A stretch of DNA of 64,000 nt from Eubacteriales bacterium (GTDB taxonomy: Bacteria; Bacillota; Clostridia; Oscillospirales; CAG-272): NCBI GenBank assembly GCA_045546615.1, contig JAZQDD010000023.1, positions 40,296 to 104,295 of the forward strand. Reading direction: 5' to 3'. Below, in pieces: positions 1,246 through 32,753 of the stretch. Under the pieces are notes generated by a model. It was not told where the DNA came from and did no database searches. It worked only from the letters and a program-made list of their open reading frames with translations. The first letter of the stretch is position 1. The number at the start of each line of letters is the position of its first letter. A program made the position numbers and the translations under genes.

Positions 1246-1392
1246 GGCGAAGCTAATCATAACTTGCCGCAGGCAATCATAACTGATAACTCGTTTCGCA
1301 AGCGGAGAACGAGAAGTTATGGGTTTAGAGTTATGAATTTGGCTTCGCCAAATGTTATGATATGACCGTTTCTGCGAAACGATCATAGTTGA
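1246..1392. repeat. Motif-hairpin inverted array, family 1 (TCATAAC / GTTATGA), copy A
   Basis: TCATAAC units and inverted GTTATGA units are separated by short hairpins (TTGCC-GCA-GGCAA, ATTTGGC-TTC-GCCAAAT). 1246-1344 is about 95% identical to 4007-4104. Confidence 0.85.
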
Positions 1393-1964: not shown

Positions 1965-2018
1965 CTAATCCGTTATTACGCTTATGCAACACATTATCAA
2001 AATAATAATATTTTTCAT
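1965..2018 (-). pseudogene. 17-aa signal-peptide-like ORF, probable deletion remnant
   Basis: Perfect AGGAGG RBS and an upstream promoter, but the ORF MKNIIILIMCCISVITD stops after 17 codons. Confidence 0.4.
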
Positions 2019-2193
2019 AACAAACCTCCTAATTTTAATTTGTTCTTTTATTTATTGTAAAGCGCATAAATATACTTTACATTTCCGAAATTAAACATGA
2101 CATTTATAATTTCTTGTATTATAGCATACTTTTGAGAAAAAATGTGAACCGATATAAATACTGAGTGAGTCGTGACATGCGACATGTTCTCAA

Positions 2194-2829
2194 TTATTCT
2201 GGCAATGTAAGATCGGGTAGTACCCCATCAATACCGTCTATTTTATAGCCTTCACTGTTCAAGCTGAAATATCCAAAATCAGATATATACATCATGACAT
2301 CGATCTCGTCACATTTTGAAACGAAATTGCTGTAATCAATTCTCACCTCATACTTGCCGGGAGTAGTCGGCATTTGGTCGGCTTTCTCGCCATTAACGTA
2401 AATGATCAAATCTGCGACGGTATTCGTTATCACTTCAGAATTGGGAGATTGCCAACCTCTGAAAGCGAACACCAGCGGATCGTTTGTTTTTTTATTAATA
2501 AACAGTGTAATAGATGTGTCGTCAAAGCCCTTGTGTGCAATAGATGCAATTTTGCTGTTGCATACATCTCCATCATAATAGAACGATGATGTAGCAGTGT
2601 ATCCAATGTATTCTGCTGATGGCGCATTGGGTGTTTGTTCCCCCTTAAAAAAGACTACGCTTACAACTAAAACAAGGCAGAAACAAGCTGCCGCCATCGA
2701 AGCCCATTTTATCCAAGTGCGTTTTTTCGGTTTCTTTTTCGATGCGAGATCTGCTTTCATATCGAAATAACGGTTAAGAATGTCCGAATCCAGATCGGTA
2801 ATAGCATCTATGAGTTTTTCTTGTGTCAT
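2194..2829 (-). CDS. Putative membrane anti-sigma factor
   Basis: Overlaps the stop of the ECF sigma gene. Short cytoplasmic N-terminus (LIDAITDLDSDIL), KWASMAAACFCLVL TM helix, then an extracytoplasmic domain. Confidence 0.75.
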   Translation of the reverse strand: MTQEKLIDAITDLDSDILNRYFDMKADLASKKKPKKRTWIKWASMAAACFCLVLVVSVVFFKGEQTPNAPSAEYIGYTATSSFYYDGDVCNSKIASIAHKGFDDTSITLFINKKTNDPLVFAFRGWQSPNSEVITNTVADLIIYVNGEKADQMPTTPGKYEVRIDYSNFVSKCDEIDVMMYISDFGYFSLNSEGYKIDGIDGVLPDLTLPE

Positions 2830-3630: not shown

Positions 3631-3981
3631 TTATTTGTTTTTTAATGTAGTAACAGAAGAAACTAACATTCTGCGAAGCTCAACACATCTTCTTTCAAAA
3701 TCGTCAAATTCTGCTTTGGTAATGCTACCTGTTTCACATAAAAGTTCAAGCCAATATTCACTCTCATTACATTCTTTAAGAGCTATTTCAAATTTTGAAA
3801 TGAAATCTTTTGTTTCCTGTGCATATTGAGCTTCGTGGATATTTGCTCCAACAGATGTACCGCAACGCAGAAGTTGATTGACCAAAGCACTTTCAACACC
3901 GTTTTGCTTCATTTTTCGGCAAAGAAAAACTATTCCCTTGGCGAACTCCTTGGATTTTGTTCTTAATACACTATCTGCCAT
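3631..3981 (-). CDS. Four-helix-bundle protein (TIGR02436 / 23S rRNA IVP / bAvd-like), paralog 1
   Basis: QLLRCGTSVGANIHEAQ...DFISKFEIALKECNESEYWL signature; ATG at 3981 with GAGGT RBS. Confidence 0.92.
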   Translation of the reverse strand: MADSVLRTKSKEFAKGIVFLCRKMKQNGVESALVNQLLRCGTSVGANIHEAQYAQETKDFISKFEIALKECNESEYWLELLCETGSITKAEFDDFERRCVELRRMLVSSVTTLKNK

Positions 3982-4006: not shown

Positions 4007-4104
4007 GGCGAAGCCAATCATAACTTGCCGCAGGCAATCATAACTGATAACTCGTTTCGCAACGGGGGACGAGAAGTTATGAGTTTAGAGTTATGAATTT
4101 GGCT
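4007..4104. repeat. Motif-hairpin inverted array, family 1, copy B, directly upstream of the four-helix-bundle gene
   Basis: Same units as 1246-1344. Ends about 25 nt before the ATG at 3981. Confidence 0.85.
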
Positions 4105-4171
4105 CACACATTCCGCAATATTTTATTTATCGTTTAACGAAAACTTCACGCATGCGGTGCTCATAACTCGG

Positions 4172-29594: not shown

Positions 29595-29679
29595 AATTGC
29601 CAAAAATCCGCCTCAAAGCGCACTAAAGAGCCAAAAAATCAGAAAAAAAGAAAAAAAGAAGAAAAAATCAAAAAAACAC

Positions 29680-29708
29680 TTGATTTATCATAATTAATGT
29701 GATATAAT
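29680..29708 (+). promoter_or_regulatory. tRNA-Trp promoter
   Basis: TTGATT-17-TATAAT with TG and an A-rich upstream tract. Confidence 0.65.
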
Positions 29709-29721
29709 ACTCATGTTGTAC

Positions 29722-29797
29722 AGGGGTATAGCTCAGTTGGTAGAGTACTGGTCTCCAAAACCATGGGTCGTGGGTTCGAGTCCTTCTGCCCCTGCCA
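29722..29797 (+). tRNA. tRNA-Trp (CCA)
   Basis: AGGGGTA acceptor stem, D-arm GCTCAGTTGGTAGAGT, anticodon loop CT-CCA-AA, GGTTCGA T-loop, encoded CCA end. Confidence 0.95.
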
Positions 29798-29834
29798 AAA
29801 ATAACGGATAGCCATTCGGCTATCCGTTATTTTT
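29798..29834 (+). terminator. tRNA terminator
   Basis: AAAATAACGGATAGCC-ATTC-GGCTATCCGTTATTTT. Confidence 0.8.
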
Positions 29835-29858
29835 CGTAGTGAGCCAAAAGCGAAAAAC

Positions 29859-29964
29859 CCCTCCAAATTGCTTGCAATTTGGACATAGTTCGCGCTACCG
29901 CTCGTTTTGGCACACCGCCGCATTATGCGCGAACTGCGGGTTCTGAGTCCTTCTGCCCCTGCCA
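29859..29964 (+). repeat. 86-bp structured repeat (copy 1) fused to a duplicated tRNA-Trp 3' end
   Basis: 29859-29944 is identical to 32098-32183. 29938-29964 (GGGTTCTGAGTCCTTCTGCCCCTGCCA) repeats the tRNA 3' end with one substitution. Confidence 0.85.
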
Positions 29965-29966
29965 AG

Positions 29967-30000
29967 AAAAAAGCCATTCGCGTAAGCGGATGGCTTTTTT
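29967..30000 (+). terminator. Terminator immediately before array family 2
   Basis: AAAAAAGCCATTCGC-GTAA-GCGGATGGCTTTTT. Confidence 0.75.
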
Positions 30001-30002
30001 CA

Positions 30003-30257
30003 GTGAAATTCGCCTGCGGCGAGTGAAATACTCCTTCGGAGCGTGAAATATGCTTCGCATGTGAAATGCGCTTCGCGCGTGAGGAGGCGAATTTTATTTC
30101 ACATTGCGACGAAGGAGCAATATTTCACAATTTCCGCCAGGAAATTATTTCACATTTTGCCGTGAGGCAAAATATTTCACTAAAGATCAAAAATTCAGAG
30201 TATCACTTCAAATACGCAAAAAACTATTTCACATTCGGCGCACGCCGAATATTTCAC
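30003..30257. repeat. Motif-hairpin inverted array, family 2 (GTGAAAT x4 / ATTTCAC x6)
   Basis: GTGAAAT at 30003, 30023, 30043, 30061; ATTTCAC at 30096, 30122, 30147, 30174, 30226, 30251. Most spacers are hairpins. Confidence 0.9.
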
Positions 30258-30286
30258 TTGAAAAAATATCGGATTTATGATATAAT
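30258..30286 (+). promoter_or_regulatory. sigmaA promoter abutting the last array unit
   Basis: TTGAAA-17-(TG)TATAAT. Confidence 0.7.
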
Positions 30287-30309
30287 AACGGCGAAAAGGC
30301 GGTGCATAT

Positions 30310-30657
30310 ATGGCAGAATCAAAACTTCGGGAACTATCAACAGACTTTGCTGTTAAGGTAATTAAGCTGTGCGACAATGTAAAAGGTCACTATTCCCTCG
30401 TAAATCAGTTGGAGCGTTCATCTACCTCTATTGGCGCAAACATTCATGAAGCAAATTATGCTCATAGCAAAGCTGACTTTGTTGCCAAATTTCAGATTGC
30501 CCTGAAAGAGTGCTACGAAACGGAATATTGGATCGAAATTGCGCAAAAAGCTAATATCATTTCAGAAGAAATCGCCAAAAGCGTTTTGCACGATTGCGGT
30601 TCTATACGCAGGATGTTAATCGCCTCGATCAACACGGCGAAAGGAGATAAGCAATGA
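30310..30657 (+). CDS. Four-helix-bundle protein (TIGR02436 / bAvd-like), paralog 2
   Basis: QLERSSTSIGANIHEAN...DFVAKFQIALKECYETEYWI. Confidence 0.92.
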   Translation: MAESKLRELSTDFAVKVIKLCDNVKGHYSLVNQLERSSTSIGANIHEANYAHSKADFVAKFQIALKECYETEYWIEIAQKANIISEEIAKSVLHDCGSIRRMLIASINTAKGDKQ

Positions 30658-31034
30658 AACTTCCCAAATATGTAAGAATACAAGGGCGCGAAATCGCGTG
30701 GAAAACAAAAAAGCCCGTGGGAATATTTATTTTGAATTGGCGTAGAATACGTGACAATATTTATAGTTCCGAAGATGTTAAGCTTTATGATGAAACACAT
30801 CAATGGTTTCTTGATAATTTACCGCAACCACCATTTTATGGTGACAACAATGATAATCCACAAGGAGCTATTACATATTTCAAAACCGAAAATTCAGATG
30901 TGATGTTGGAAAAAATACAACCCTTGATAGATTTACTTGATAAATATGATATCCCTTACGATATCGTTTACACGAATTATGTTGGTAAAATTATTTATGA
31001 AGATGATTATCAAGTCGGTGTTATTGATACATAA
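30654..31034 (+). CDS. Hypothetical protein, translationally coupled to the four-helix-bundle gene
   Basis: ATGA overlap and AAGGAG RBS; ends in GKIIYEDDYQV. Confidence 0.75.
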   Translation: MKLPKYVRIQGREIAWKTKKPVGIFILNWRRIRDNIYSSEDVKLYDETHQWFLDNLPQPPFYGDNNDNPQGAITYFKTENSDVMLEKIQPLIDLLDKYDIPYDIVYTNYVGKIIYEDDYQVGVIDT

Positions 31035-31188
31035 GATTCGTTACAAGCATGGCACGAAAGCCCGACAGACCTCGGACAACTTTTTGCTCCCCTCATCGCC
31101 AAGGGATAAGTCTATCCGCTGACCTTGAAACACGGATCGATTTCGAAAAAACTTGCGGTATGGATTGATTTTGAAAGGGTATCACAGC

Positions 31189-31228
31189 AAAAAACGCACT
31201 TTTGTCTACCGACAAAGGTGCGTTTTTT
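31189..31228 (+). terminator. Terminator immediately before array family 3
   Basis: AAAAAACGCACTTTTGTC-TACC-GACAAAGGTGCGTTTTTT. Confidence 0.75.
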
Positions 31229-31229
31229 G

Positions 31230-31383
31230 AATGATGTTTGCCTTCGGCAAATGATGTTGGCTTGCGCCAATGATGACGGCTTCGCCACATTTTGGGGCAA
31301 ACATCGCATCATTGCGAGTGAAACGAGCAACATCATTTTGAGCGAAGCGAAAAACATCATATCGCCGCAAGGCGATGCATCAT
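31230..31383. repeat. Motif-hairpin inverted array, family 3 (ATGATG x3 / CATCAT x4)
   Basis: ATGATG at 31231, 31251, 31270; CATCAT at 31307, 31331, 31355, 31378; hairpin spacers. Confidence 0.85.
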
Positions 31384-31412
31384 TTGACATACAAGCGAAT
31401 TTATGCTATAAT
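31384..31412 (+). promoter_or_regulatory. Consensus sigmaA promoter abutting the last array unit
   Basis: TTGACA-17-(TG)TATAAT. Confidence 0.8.
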
Positions 31413-31436
31413 AAGACAAAGAAAGGCGGTGGAAAA

Positions 31437-31964
31437 ATGAAAACAGAGTCAAAAAACATATTAACGCGAGAAAACTGTAAAGCAGAGCTTAAGCGGTTAT
31501 CCAAATCAAGGCTAATGCAAGATTCGGTTGTGTTGGCAGTATTACTGTTGATATTTGTTCCACTTTTTCTTTTATCGATGTATTTAGCCAAATATATTTT
31601 AATTTTGGGAATTGGTTTTGCTTTGATATGTGCTATTTTCCCTGCTATGTTTGTTTATAGAATTATACGAGATGTGACGTTCTCAAAAATGATCGAGCAA
31701 AATGGCTTTTCAATTGTGAAGGATACTGTTTCTCGCATATCTCTCGATGAAATTCCCAAAAGTTATGCCGAAGGTCGTCGTACAGTGAACGTGATTTATT
31801 TTGCAAAGCACGGAAGATGCGTTGCGCCAAAAGTAAGAACTCCATTTGACTTTTCTGCCCCTGGCGATGAATTTTATCTTGTTGTCCTGCATAAAAAAGA
31901 GGAAATTGTCTTTGCCTATAATTCCACAATGTACAACTGTAACGAATTAGATGTAACCAAATGA
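31437..31964 (+). CDS. Hypothetical membrane protein (two TM helices)
   Basis: ATG at 31437 after AAAGGCGGTG; the longer ORF extension merely reads through the array. Confidence 0.7.
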   Translation: MKTESKNILTRENCKAELKRLSKSRLMQDSVVLAVLLLIFVPLFLLSMYLAKYILILGIGFALICAIFPAMFVYRIIRDVTFSKMIEQNGFSIVKDTVSRISLDEIPKSYAEGRRTVNVIYFAKHGRCVAPKVRTPFDFSAPGDEFYLVVLHKKEEIVFAYNSTMYNCNELDVTK

Positions 31965-32097
31965 ATAATCTTACGGGGCTTCAGACACCTTTTGTTCGTT
32001 TTTACCCTTGTTTAGACACCTTTTATCACGTTTAAAGCAAGAAGAAAAGAAGTCGGTGGCTTCTTTTCTTTTTATCAGCGGATAGTAAAACGAAGAA

Positions 32098-32191
32098 CCC
32101 TCCAAATTGCTTGCAATTTGGACATAGTTCGCGCTACCGCTCGTTTTGGCACACCGCCGCATTATGCGCGAACTGCGGGTTCTTTCTGCCA
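32098..32191 (+). repeat. 86-bp structured repeat (copy 2) with eroded tRNA 3' end
   Basis: Identical to 29859-29944, followed by TTCTGCCA. Confidence 0.85.
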
Positions 32192-32231
32192 AAATCTTAT
32201 ACAAAAGTACGAAATTTGTTTTTTATTTTAC

Positions 32232-32753
32232 TTATTTTTCTAAATCTTCAGGCTCGCCGAAAATATGTTTTTCCACGTATGCCATCATTCTGTTATTCAA
32301 AATAATATAATAAAATGCTAAAACCATGCCCGCGGTTCCCGATATAACTATCATATCAACATCCAAAAACTTCATAGATAAAATCAAGCTCAACCACATA
32401 ACACCGCAAAGAATAAATGTAAAAATATTTTTCCGACACCATCTTTTCTTCCAAAAGTCCTGTTTATCCTTTAACGTAAAAGCGCTTGCCTCCAGAGTTT
32501 CCTTAATGTTTGATTCCGCCATTTTCTTATATTCCGCGGCGTTTAATCTTCTGCCGCTTATAAGCTCGTTTATCGTCAGTCCGTAAATGTCACTAAGCTC
32601 TGATAGCATTTCCACGGGGGGCATATATGTTCCCGTTTCCCATCTTGAAATAGTTTTATTGGACACACCAAGTCTTTCTCCAAGCTCGGCTTGCGTAAGA
32701 CCATGTTCTTTACGAAGCTCCGCAAGAAAGCTTCCCATTTTTACCATATCCAT
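32232..32753 (-). CDS. XRE HTH regulator with C-terminal TM helices
   Basis: LTQAELGERLGVSNKTISRWETG plus two TM segments. Confidence 0.85.
   Translation of the reverse strand: MDMVKMGSFLAELRKEHGLTQAELGERLGVSNKTISRWETGTYMPPVEMLSELSDIYGLTINELISGRRLNAAEYKKMAESNIKETLEASAFTLKDKQDFWKKRWCRKNIFTFILCGVMWLSLILSMKFLDVDMIVISGTAGMVLAFYYIILNNRMMAYVEKHIFGEPEDLEK

What the first reader, a model, noticed from the sequence alone, without database searches (positions are those of the whole stretch)
30003..30657. Candidate new system: four-helix-bundle (bAvd/IVP-like) genes each paired with their own motif + mini-hairpin inverted array
Seen: both four-helix-bundle paralogs (3631-3981 and 30310-30657) have an array immediately upstream. 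In each array a 6-7 nt motif repeats about every 20-27 nt, most spacers are different short hairpins, and the motif flips orientation midway. Paralog 2 uses GTGAAAT x4 then ATTTCAC x4 (+2). Paralog 1 uses TCATAAC/GTTATGA. Motif sequences differ while the architecture is conserved. If single-stranded, the two halves pair through the motifs and leave side hairpins, giving a ladder of multi-way junctions. Established: this family includes the Leptospira 23S rRNA intervening-sequence proteins and is homologous to bAvd, the pentameric nucleic-acid-binding accessory protein of diversity-generating retroelements; the function of stand-alone members is unknown. Inference: each protein binds its cognate structured RNA/ssDNA array, either for autoregulation or as the protein part of a small mobile element, with protein and motif co-evolving.
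Basis: partly seen in the sequence, partly recalled or inferred. Interest (0 to 1): 0.88.

Follow-up and report, generated by a model that had tools for sequence, protein, structure and literature searches.

The report
Hairpin-repeat arrays paired with four-helix-bundle genes
Each small four-helix-bundle gene of unknown function in this gut bacterium sits behind its own array of a short motif alternating with tiny hairpins, one form of which is the orphan 'Gut-1' RNA motif, and arrays and genes occur together across many related genomes, which suggests that the protein binds the repeats.

Summary
GTGAAAT occurs four times forward and six times inverted in 30003-30257 (10 of the 18 window matches). 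Paralog 1 has a smaller GTTATGA array.

The left arm is Rfam RF01706, Gut-1 RNA (68.9 bits, cut-off 50). The right arm is the same model on the other strand (49.5 bits). Gut-1 has no published function.

All 7 of the genome's 8 PF05635/TIGR02436 genes that have upstream sequence carry such an array, each with its own motif. So do 84 of 102 relatives' genes. Spacers covary as hairpins: 159 double changes keep pairing, 2 break it.

In 151 genomes of the order, gene and Gut-1 co-occur: 57 both, 16 gene only, 6 Gut-1 only, 72 neither. Most arrays are orphans scattered in intergenic sites. Across the phylum the gene is preceded by contiguous short tandem repeats, also inside 23S rRNA.

Best reading (about 0.5): the pentameric protein binds its cognate repeats, as its homologue Avd binds an RNA stem-loop, and so controls its own operon. 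Binding, ligand type and outcome are untested.

The parts
29722..29797 (+). tRNA-Trp (CCA). IVP cassettes often lie just downstream of a tRNA gene.
   Evidence: ARAGORN and Rfam tRNA. The same tRNA context is seen in 4 of 7 own loci and in many relatives.
29966..30001 (+). A-run / stem / T-run hairpin (bidirectional terminator shape) that opens the element.
   Evidence: Inverted repeat I3: 16-nt arms, 94% complementary. An equivalent hairpin precedes every array. Its stem covaries between two homologous copies.
30003..30085 (+). Left arm: GTGAAAT x4 plus a degenerate fifth copy, separated by four mini-hairpins. This arm is Rfam Gut-1.
   Evidence: Motif positions. RF01706 match at 30001-30072, 68.9 bits against a gathering score of 50, E 5e-13.
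30096..30257 (+). Right arm: ATTTCAC x6 (the inverted motif) with hairpin spacers. It is Gut-1 on the minus strand.
   Evidence: Motif positions. RF01706 match at 30091-30182 on the minus strand, 49.5 bits, 0.5 below the gathering score.
30258..30286 (+). Sigma-70-type promoter TTGAAA-17-TATAAT (11 of 12, with TG). Its -35 hexamer abuts the last motif.
   Evidence: Promoter scan. In 25 of the 34 related arrays with a promoter of 10 of 12 or better, the -35 starts within -1 to +2 nt of the motif end.
30310..30657 (+). Four-helix-bundle gene, paralog 2 (IVP / Avd-like).
   Evidence: PF05635 at 3e-26. TIGR02436 at 1.8e-29. PDB 2rld at 1e-38 with the profile of the 8 own paralogs.
30654..31034 (+). 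126-aa cargo ORF whose start overlaps the IVP stop by 4 nt. No family match.
   Evidence: ORF list. No hit in Pfam, NCBIfam or PADLOC.
31188..31229 (+). Terminator-shaped hairpin that opens the third array.
   Evidence: Terminator scan: 19 pairs followed by a T-run.
31231..31383 (+). Third array, an orphan: ATGATG x3 then CATCAT x4 with hairpin spacers. It is nearly the same as the array of IVP paralog C23:130627.
   Evidence: L111 coordinates plus 28824. Weak Gut-1 match at 31192-31262, 25 bits.
31384..31412 (+). Consensus promoter TTGACA-17-TATAAT (12 of 12) that abuts the third array.
   Evidence: Promoter scan.
31437..31964 (+). 175-aa ORF driven by the third array and its promoter. It is not an IVP and has no family match.
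   Evidence: Sequence read. No hit in Pfam, NCBIfam or PADLOC.
3631..3981 (-). Four-helix-bundle gene, paralog 1.
   Evidence: PF05635 at 3.4e-25. TIGR02436 at 1.3e-28.
4018..4167 (-). Small array of paralog 1. On the gene strand: TCATAAC x2, GTTATCA, GTTATGA x2, with two hairpin spacers and one further GTTATGA after a terminator hairpin.
1257..1360 (-). Orphan array of the same GTTATGA class. It is a near-copy of the paralog 1 array and lies upstream of a minus-strand non-IVP ORF.

Best explanation
The array at 30003-30257 is one copy of a modular repeat family. A terminator-shaped hairpin is followed by 3-6 units of a 6-8-nt motif plus a mini-hairpin, usually in two inverted arms. The GTGAAAT form of this family is Rfam Gut-1.

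I propose that the PF05635/TIGR02436 protein (IVP, Avd-like) is the sequence-specific binding protein of these repeats. Its two solved relatives were each deposited with five chains (pentamer recalled). Each protomer, or each crevice between protomers, would read one motif that is exposed as a short single-stranded linker between folded hairpins. Its homologue Avd reads flipped-out bases of an RNA stem-loop with all five protomers in this way.

The copy that abuts the gene's own promoter or ribosome-binding site would give feedback control of the IVP-plus-cargo operon. Copies with the same motif elsewhere, some with a promoter for another gene and many inside operons or after stop codons, would be further targets.

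Shown here: the anatomy, the hairpin covariation, the gene-array linkage, the genome-level co-occurrence and the motif classes. Inferred: binding itself, whether the ligand is RNA, single-stranded DNA or extruded DNA, and the regulatory outcome.
For: 1. Linkage. All 7 of the 8 own paralogs that have upstream sequence carry an array, with motifs GTGAAAT (two genes, 78-81% identical), GTTATGA, ATGATG, TGATAT, GTGAAGT and GTGATATA. Among relatives, 84 of 102 genes pass a strict exact-6-mer rule.

2. Enrichment. Three or more same-orientation 6-mer copies lie within 200 nt upstream of 97 of 103, 32 of 37 and 18 of 27 IVP genes in three samples, against 104 of 1503 control ORFs.

3. Co-occurrence.
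- In 151 genomes of the order: 57 have both, 16 IVP only, 6 Gut-1 only, 72 neither. Odds ratio 43, Spearman of counts 0.80, with no phylogenetic correction.
- By the family labels of those two calls (my tally), 76 of 91 genomes in 11 polymorphic families are concordant. Families f19 and f20 are fully concordant.
- In 21 close relatives, the 8 genomes without IVP have 0, 0, 0, 0, 0, 0, 3 and 6 Gut-1 matches. The 13 with IVP have 2 to 61.

4. Shared motifs. By my reading, 33 of 36 orphan arms in this genome use a motif core that an IVP-linked array of the same genome also uses.

5. Structure under selection.
- Paired positions with both sides changed: 159 keep pairing, 2 break it. There are also 255 loop changes.
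- Two unlinked copies are near-identical only from the opening hairpin to the last motif, with compensated stems.

6. Equivalence of forms. Other subfamilies have contiguous heptads instead of motif plus hairpin. The two forms become alike only if the hairpins fold, which points to a single-stranded ligand.

7. Transcribed copies.
- Single arms lie between an upstream stop codon and the IVP ribosome-binding site (L116, L123, L125, L127).
- One arm is inserted into the def-fmt junction, where three relatives have an overlapping ATGA.
- Some IVP genes with heptads lie inside 23S rRNA and RNase P RNA genes.

8. Precedent. The Avd pentamer contacts an 11-bp RNA stem-loop with all five protomers, and flipped-out bases sit in the crevices between protomers (preprint 10.1101/2023.10.23.563531, passages read). 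The closest solved relative, 2rld (E 1e-38), was deposited with 5 chains.

9. Copy number. Arms hold mostly 4 motif copies, range 2-6, often with a degenerate extra copy.
Against: 1. No binding data exist.

2. At paralog 2 an 11-of-12 promoter lies between the array and the ribosome-binding site. The array is therefore not in that mRNA. Feedback here would need binding to DNA or to read-through RNA.

3. Only 34 of 84 related arrays have a promoter of 10 of 12 or better. Contexts differ even inside one clade.

4. The functional strand is unresolved.
- Loops read as GNA and GNRA on the ATTTCAC strand, and internal G.T wobbles are 12 on that strand against 3 on the other.
- The Rfam structure, in contrast, uses A-U and U.G closing pairs on the GUGAAAU strand.
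- Arms occur in both orientations inside one operon, C50 def-fmt-rsmB.

5. Specificity is partial.
- G004 (no IVP found, 85% complete) and G019 have GTGAAG arms without a GTGAAG-linked IVP.
- G005, G007 and G014 have ATGATG arms without an ATGATG-linked IVP.
- Six genomes have Gut-1 but no IVP.

6. That motif follows protein may only reflect that gene and array are inherited together.

7. Avd was reported to bind nucleic acid without sequence specificity (recalled, not checked here).

8. Four copies per arm is the mode, not five.
Confidence: 0.5

Rival explanations
1. Selfish repeat family with a helper protein, like REPIN-RAYT. In this view the arrays are non-autonomous mobile elements and array plus IVP is the autonomous form. 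The protein binds the repeats to spread or maintain them, not to regulate genes.
For: - The genome has about 46 arms but only 8 IVP genes.
- Copies within a class are very similar to each other.
- Homology between two unlinked copies ends exactly at the outer motif copies, which lie in inverted orientation like terminal inverted repeats.
- The def-fmt junction is empty in three relatives, holds an arm in G000, and holds heptads plus an IVP gene in G001, G003 and G009.
- tRNA-Trp is followed by array plus IVP in G000 and G002 but only by a terminator in G008.
- IVP genes sit in insertions within 23S rRNA and RNase P RNA genes.
- Genomes have both partners or neither.
Against: - The protein is a 115-aa helical bundle with no known catalytic motif.
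- No Y1 transposase and no reverse transcriptase was found in this 95%-complete genome.
- I did not look systematically for target-site duplications, and saw none.
- No recent transposition event was documented.
Confidence: 0.2
2. The arrays work without the protein. They would be structured RNA or terminator-insulator modules (Gut-1 as a noncoding RNA, or 3' and 5' UTR hairpin stacks that stabilise transcripts or block read-through). IVP genes would merely share their insertion sites or travel on the same cassettes.
For: - Weinberg et al. 2010 rated Gut-1 'RNA? Y' and not cis-regulatory (Table 1 of PMC2864571, seen through the find mode).
- Every arm opens with a terminator-shaped hairpin, and composite arrays flank a central terminator.
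- 13 arms start 0-33 nt after a co-directional stop codon in the GUGAAAU orientation (crude ORF calls).
- Contigs from RNA libraries cover parts of both arrays.
Against: - This view does not explain why each IVP gene has an array with its own motif.
- It does not explain why unrelated heptad repeats precede IVP genes across the phylum, even inside rRNA.
- It does not explain why arrays are missing from genomes without IVP genes.
- It does not explain why the 7-nt motif is conserved while the hairpin sequences are free.
Confidence: 0.15
3. A double-stranded DNA operator or iteron array read by the IVP or by another DNA-binding protein. This would resemble the heptad operators of omega/ParG-type repressors or plasmid iterons. 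The palindromic spacers would be incidental.
For: - The two inverted arms and the roughly 20-27-bp spacing suit a DNA-binding oligomer.
- The last motif abuts the -35 hexamer in 25 of the 34 arrays that have a strong promoter.
- Orphan arrays with promoters drive other genes.
Against: - The spacers are under strong selection for self-pairing, not for sequence, which duplex DNA does not need.
- Contiguous 7-nt repeats and 20-nt-spaced repeats cannot present the same geometry on duplex DNA.
- Many copies lie inside operons or rRNA, with no promoter nearby.
- No replication or partition gene was noted in the ORF listings beside the arrays; only eight cargo ORFs were scanned against Pfam.
Confidence: 0.08

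Closest known systems
Gut-1 RNA motif (Rfam RF01706; Weinberg et al. 2010, Genome Biol 11:R31)
   Same: The left arm matches the model end to end at 68.9 bits. It has three hairpins separated by GUGAAAU. The right arm matches on the other strand at 49.5 bits. Like the original, it comes from gut bacteria.
   Different: - Gut-1 was described as a stand-alone noncoding RNA of unknown function, known from human gut metagenomes only.
- Here it is one motif class of a wider family that also uses ATGATG, GTGAAG, TGATAT, GTTATGA and other motifs.
- It is usually two-armed, it is tied to PF05635 genes, and it comes from animal-gut genomes.
- The 2010 supplement, which may list neighbouring genes, could not be seen.
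bAvd, the accessory protein of diversity-generating retroelements
   Same: It is a homologous four-helix-bundle family (PMC10053308, passages read). Avd is a pentamer that holds an RNA stem-loop with all five protomers.
   Different: No reverse transcriptase was found in this genome, and I did not look for a template or variable repeat pair. Here the candidate ligand is a tandem array with a paralog-specific motif.
23S rRNA intervening-sequence proteins (PF05635, Leptospira type)
   Same: They belong to the same Pfam family. In the phylum sample, IVP genes inside 23S rRNA genes also have short tandem repeats just before the ribosome-binding site.
   Different: The window's genes are not in rRNA. 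They follow a tRNA gene or a protein gene, have their own promoter, and carry cargo ORFs.
REP / REPIN elements with their RAYT transposase
   Same: - Short extragenic palindromes with a conserved flanking motif, arranged singly or in inverted clusters.
- Many copies per genome.
- Each protein gene is flanked by its own repeat class.
- Genomes have both partners or neither.
The REP features are recalled, not checked.
   Different: No Y1/HUH transposase was found. The hairpin sequences are free and only the motif is fixed. The protein is a small helical bundle.
TRAP, the trp RNA-binding attenuation protein (ring protein reading tandem triplets)
   Same: By analogy only: a ring-shaped oligomer in which each subunit reads one copy of a short repeat in single-stranded RNA, next to a terminator or ribosome-binding site. 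This is recalled.
   Different: The fold is unrelated. No binding is shown here. The repeats are 6-8 nt long and are often spaced by hairpins.

Membership tests
Rfam RF01706 Gut-1 | Covariance-model score at or above the gathering score of 50 bits | tested here: met
   Left arm 30001-30072 on the + strand: 68.9 bits, E 5e-13. Right arm 30091-30182 on the - strand: 49.5 bits, just below. Third array: 25 bits.
Rfam RF01706 Gut-1 | Expressed as an RNA in the modelled orientation | tested here: inconclusive
   Contigs of four metatranscriptome runs cover parts of the arrays. Contigs carry no strand or level information, and DNA carry-over or other organisms are possible. Strand clues conflict.
PF05635 / TIGR02436 four-helix-bundle protein | HMM score above the curated cut-off | tested here: met
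   92.1 and 88.8 bits against a cut-off of 33.8. 102.1 and 99.4 bits against a cut-off of 24.
PF05635 / TIGR02436 four-helix-bundle protein | Pentameric barrel | not tested
   Indirect only. PDB 2rld (E 1e-38) and 2gsc were each deposited with 5 chains. No model was built here.
Diversity-generating retroelement | Reverse transcriptase together with a template/variable repeat pair | tested here: not met
   No RVT_1 match in the own genome, which is 94.9% complete. Template and variable repeats were not searched.
23S rRNA intervening sequence | Insertion inside a 23S rRNA gene | tested here: not met
   The Rfam scan of 29600-32400 finds only the tRNA and Gut-1. The feature is met for L159, L160, L167 and L172 in other genomes.
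REP / RAYT system | Y1 (HUH) transposase gene flanked by the repeats | tested here: not met
   No PF01797 match in the own genome.
CRISPR array | Direct repeats of about 21-48 nt with unique spacers of similar length | tested here: not met
   The repeat is 7 nt, the spacers are 11-20-nt palindromes, and the orientation flips midway. cas genes were not searched.

The most novel reading that the evidence does not exclude
PF05635 proteins are ring-shaped readers of tandem short repeats in single-stranded nucleic acid. Each protomer would read one 6-8-nt unit, and specificity would be re-set from paralog to paralog. Together with their arrays (Gut-1 and its sister classes, heptads in rRNA insertions) they would form a new pair of autonomous and non-autonomous elements. 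These elements colonise transcribed junctions such as tRNA tails, operon joints, 23S rRNA and RNase P RNA without a transposase or a reverse transcriptase of their own.
Probability: 0.2. Interest if true: 0.92.

Novelty: new variant of a known kind. Interest (0 to 1): 0.78.

Why it matters
Two long-standing orphans would explain each other.

PF05635/TIGR02436 is a very common small protein family. It includes the 23S rRNA intervening-sequence proteins and stand-alone Avd-like proteins. A 2024 paper still calls it functionally uncharacterized.

Gut-1 has been in Rfam since 2010 with no function. My searches for 'Gut-1 RNA', 'Gut-1 motif' and RF01706 found only the 2010 paper and a 2026 structure-prediction benchmark.

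The pairing gives each a concrete, cheap test: protein against cognate or swapped array. It also supplies a natural panel of protein-motif pairs for working out a recognition code. If the arrays are mobile, it would also show how small structured insertions settle in essential operons and in rRNA.

I found no paper that links the two. The 2010 supplement was not seen.

Tried and rejected
- RNAalifold on a MAFFT alignment of 11 left arms gave a meaningless consensus (-0.8 kcal/mol). The hairpins differ in length and do not align by position. I replaced it with per-spacer statistics.
- A strict two-arm detector missed the small array of paralog 1 and all single arms. An arm detector gave 56 hits against 0 in a shuffled genome. 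About 10 of the 56 are coding tandem repeats, which I set aside by eye.
- Expression. Only Logan contigs of four RNA libraries were available. They cover parts of the arrays but cannot show strand, ends or level. The parts without cover mean nothing.
- Reverse-transcriptase partner idea (Avd-like protein plus RT): no RVT_1 in the genome.
- REP/RAYT idea: no Y1_Tnp in the genome.
- Defence system idea: no PADLOC match for either IVP or for the two neighbouring ORFs.
- Phage origin: only 2 of 50,697 phage records encode a relative, both unannotated metagenomic records.
- 'Five motifs for five protomers': the mode is 4 per arm. I keep this only as a loose fit.
- Specificity residues. Four alignment columns separate the GTGAAAT and GATGAAATC classes, but this is confounded by descent and is a lead only.
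- Stable GCGAAGC-type DNA mini-hairpins, which I recalled from the literature, fit the GAA loops. I tested nothing on this.
- I ran no structure prediction, fold search, complex prediction, protein-database search or atlas search. The solved relative 2rld made them unnecessary for the question.
Additional file 1 of Weinberg 2010 may describe Gut-1 neighbourhoods.
Full report
WHAT IS THERE

The region reads, left to right:
- tRNA-Trp at 29722-29797.
- A 167-nt insert.
- A hairpin with an A-run and a T-run at 29966-30001.
- GTGAAAT four times, at 30003, 30023, 30043 and 30061, each followed by a different 11-13-nt palindrome.
- A degenerate fifth copy and a short centre.
- ATTTCAC six times, at 30096 to 30251, again with palindromic spacers.
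- A promoter TTGAAA-17-TATAAT at 30258-30286, directly after the last motif.
- A ribosome-binding site and the 115-aa ORF at 30310-30657.

Ten of the 18 GTGAAAT matches in the 64-kb window lie in these 255 nt. The ORF and its paralog at 3631-3981 are PF05635 and TIGR02436 proteins. The profile of the 8 own paralogs matches PDB 2rld at E 1e-38, an entry deposited with five chains.

Paralog 1 has a smaller array of the same design with GTTATGA.

- The promoter that lies between the array and paralog 2.
- A third array at 31231-31383 (ATGATG three times, CATCAT four times). It abuts a perfect consensus promoter at 31384-31412 and drives a 175-aa ORF that is not an IVP.
- A fourth array at 1257-1360, a near-copy of paralog 1's.

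IT IS PARTLY A KNOWN MOTIF

Rfam's Gut-1 model (RF01706) matches the left arm end to end at 68.9 bits (gathering score 50). It matches the right arm on the opposite strand at 49.5 bits. The Gut-1 consensus is exactly three hairpins separated by GUGAAAU.

Weinberg et al. 2010 listed Gut-1 as a likely noncoding RNA from human gut metagenomes with no function (Table 1 and one paragraph seen). The only other paper my searches found uses it as a folding benchmark.

LINKAGE TO THE GENE

- tblastn finds eight PF05635 paralogs in this 1.84-Mb, 66-contig genome.
- Seven have upstream sequence. All seven show the same order: terminator-shaped hairpin, direct arm, inverted arm, then promoter or ribosome-binding site, then the gene.
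- The motifs are GTGAAAT (two genes that are 78-81% identical), GTTATGA, ATGATG, TGATAT, GTGAAGT and GTGATATA.
- Six of the eight genes are followed by a variable ORF whose start overlaps the IVP stop or lies inside its last codons (exact 4-nt overlaps in four). These include a cytidine-deaminase-like protein, a DUF218 protein, a GNAT acetyltransferase and unknowns.
- Of 102 IVP genes from 80 public gut MAG loci, own loci and relatives with at least 250 nt upstream, 84 pass a strict two-arm rule.

With a looser, orientation-blind measure (three or more same-strand copies of a 6-mer within 200 nt upstream), the fractions are:
- 97 of 103 close relatives.
- 32 of 37 IVP genes in 13 related genomes.
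- 18 of 27 in a phylum-wide sample.
- 104 of 1503 for all crude ORFs of this genome.

THE HAIRPINS ARE SELECTED AS HAIRPINS

- Of 350 distinct spacers, 218 can form four or more contiguous Watson-Crick pairs. Shuffled spacers average 26.5.
- Among 221 pairs of near-identical spacers, stem positions changed on both sides keep pairing 159 times and lose it twice. There are 255 loop changes. The pairs are not independent.
- Two unlinked copies in this genome, C2 (IVP-linked) and C20 (orphan), are near-identical from the T-run of the opening hairpin to the last ATTTCAC. Several stems are compensated, including the opening hairpin. They are unrelated from the next base on.

MOST ARRAYS ARE ORPHANS

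An arm detector gives 56 hits in this genome and none in a shuffled copy. About 46 are real arms, and 10 of those are IVP-linked. Infernal finds 48 Gut-1 matches at E 0.01 or better.

Many are single arms: a small opening hairpin, four GTGAAAT-hairpin units, a variant unit and a closing hairpin. They lie directly after stop codons or directly before a ribosome-binding site on the other strand. Arms of different motifs are joined in tandem or flank a central terminator.

By my reading, 33 of 36 orphan arms use a motif core that an IVP-linked array of the same genome also uses.

One arm sits between def and fmt. These two genes overlap by ATGA in three relatives. The insert brings its own ribosome-binding site. 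In three other relatives the same junction holds heptad repeats plus an IVP gene.

GENOME-LEVEL CO-OCCURRENCE

In 21 close genomes, the eight without an IVP gene have 0, 0, 0, 0, 0, 0, 3 and 6 Gut-1 matches. The thirteen with one have 2 to 61.

In 151 genomes of the order, all at least 90% complete:
- 57 have both, 16 only IVP, 6 only Gut-1, and 72 neither.
- The odds ratio is 43 and the Spearman correlation of counts is 0.80.
- These figures are not corrected for descent.

The pattern repeats inside families. By the family labels of the two calls, 76 of 91 genomes in 11 polymorphic families agree. Several of the 'IVP only' genomes carry the canonical subfamily, which uses contiguous heptads that the Gut-1 model cannot see.

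A FAMILY-WIDE RULE

In other subfamilies the hairpins are absent and the motif is repeated head to tail, for example four to nine copies of a 7-mer just before the ribosome-binding site. This holds for IVP genes inside 23S rRNA genes (L159, L160, L167, L172) and for one inside an RNase P RNA gene (L169). The motif-plus-hairpin array is therefore a local variant of a general feature: tandem short repeats in front of PF05635 genes.

HOW IT MOST LIKELY WORKS

The two forms, contiguous heptads and heptads spaced by hairpins, look alike only if the hairpins fold and bring the motifs together. That points to a single-stranded ligand.

The homologue Avd is a pentamer. It grips an 11-bp RNA stem-loop with all five protomers, and flipped-out bases sit in the crevices between protomers (preprint 10.1101/2023.10.23.563531, passages read).

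I therefore propose that the IVP pentamer binds its cognate array, one motif per protomer or crevice. The copy next to its own promoter or ribosome-binding site would give feedback control. Other copies would be further targets.

What is shown is anatomy, covariation and association. Binding, the nucleic acid involved and the outcome are inferred.

WHAT SPEAKS AGAINST THIS

- At paralog 2 the array is upstream of a strong promoter and so is not in that mRNA.
- Only 34 of 84 arrays have such a promoter. In others the last motif abuts the ribosome-binding site or an extended -10 element.
- Strand clues conflict. GNA and GNRA loops and internal wobbles favour the ATTTCAC strand. The closing A-U and U.G pairs of the Rfam structure favour the GUGAAAU strand.
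- Arms occur in both orientations within one operon.
- Motif specificity across genomes is partial.

RIVALS

- A REPIN-RAYT-like selfish pair fits the copy numbers, the sharp borders and the insertion polymorphism. It lacks any catalytic candidate: no Y1 transposase and no reverse transcriptase was found.
- A protein-independent RNA or terminator module fits the terminator-shaped ends. It does not explain paralog-specific motifs or the co-occurrence.
- A duplex-DNA operator fits the two arms and the contact with the -35 element. It does not explain the hairpin selection or the heptad form.

VERDICT

The finding is real, it is much larger than the two loci reported, and part of it already has a name (Gut-1). 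The link between Gut-1-type arrays and PF05635 genes appears to be unreported in the papers I could search. It turns two orphans into a testable pair.

Noticed in passing
window 29798-29971 and 32093-32183: A 167-nt insert lies directly after tRNA-Trp. It carries a 91-nt repeat whose second copy, 98% identical, lies 2.2 kb downstream; blastn finds 5 copies in the genome. The insert ends in a duplicate of the tRNA 3' end (29778-29804 equals 29945-29971), which looks like an att-type duplication. The two 91-nt copies bracket the array, the IVP gene, the cargo ORF, the third array and its ORF. One RNA-library contig joins 29902 to 32215, and another joins 29777 to 29945.
   Followed up: partly
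L169 (G210:C1:402344-405661), 1229-2003: An IVP gene sits inside an RNase P RNA gene. The RF00010 match spans 775 nt for a 367-nt model. Short tandem repeats lie just before its ribosome-binding site. L173 shows the same upstream sequence in another genome.
   Followed up: partly
L159, L160, L167, L172; G313:C1 (four places): IVP genes lie inside 23S rRNA genes (classical intervening sequences), each preceded by 2-4 copies of a 6-7-mer. One complete genome, G313, has four IVP matches with identical scores.
   Followed up: partly
L004 (G000:C31) 2006-2311, minus strand: The GTGAAGT-class paralog has an in-frame TGA about 15 codons before the usual end. It is either truncated or a pseudogene. 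Its array and promoter are intact.
   Followed up: no
L107 / L141 (G002:C7:73418-74608): tRNA-Trp is followed by three tandem copies of a whole two-armed array, with a 250-nt period, and then an IVP gene.
   Followed up: no
G000 C53:91-300 and C43:3494-3860 (L134, L135): These are composite arrays. One has six ATGATG units joined to four GTGAAAT units in the same orientation. The other has arms of two different motif classes on either side of a shared central terminator hairpin.
   Followed up: partly
window 30654-31034 and cargo ORFs in L001-L006: Six of the eight IVP genes are followed by a different small ORF whose start overlaps the IVP stop or lies inside its last codons. These include a cytidine-deaminase-like protein, a DUF218 protein and a GNAT acetyltransferase; four have no Pfam match. 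The arrangement looks like a portable promoter-and-leader-gene cassette.
   Followed up: partly
L131 (G000:C50:18300-19400) and C9:13649, C28:72909: Contiguous ATTCATT-type heptads follow some Gut-1 arms. The same kind of heptad precedes IVP genes in relatives (L105, L117). Hairpin arms and plain heptads therefore combine in one element.
   Followed up: no
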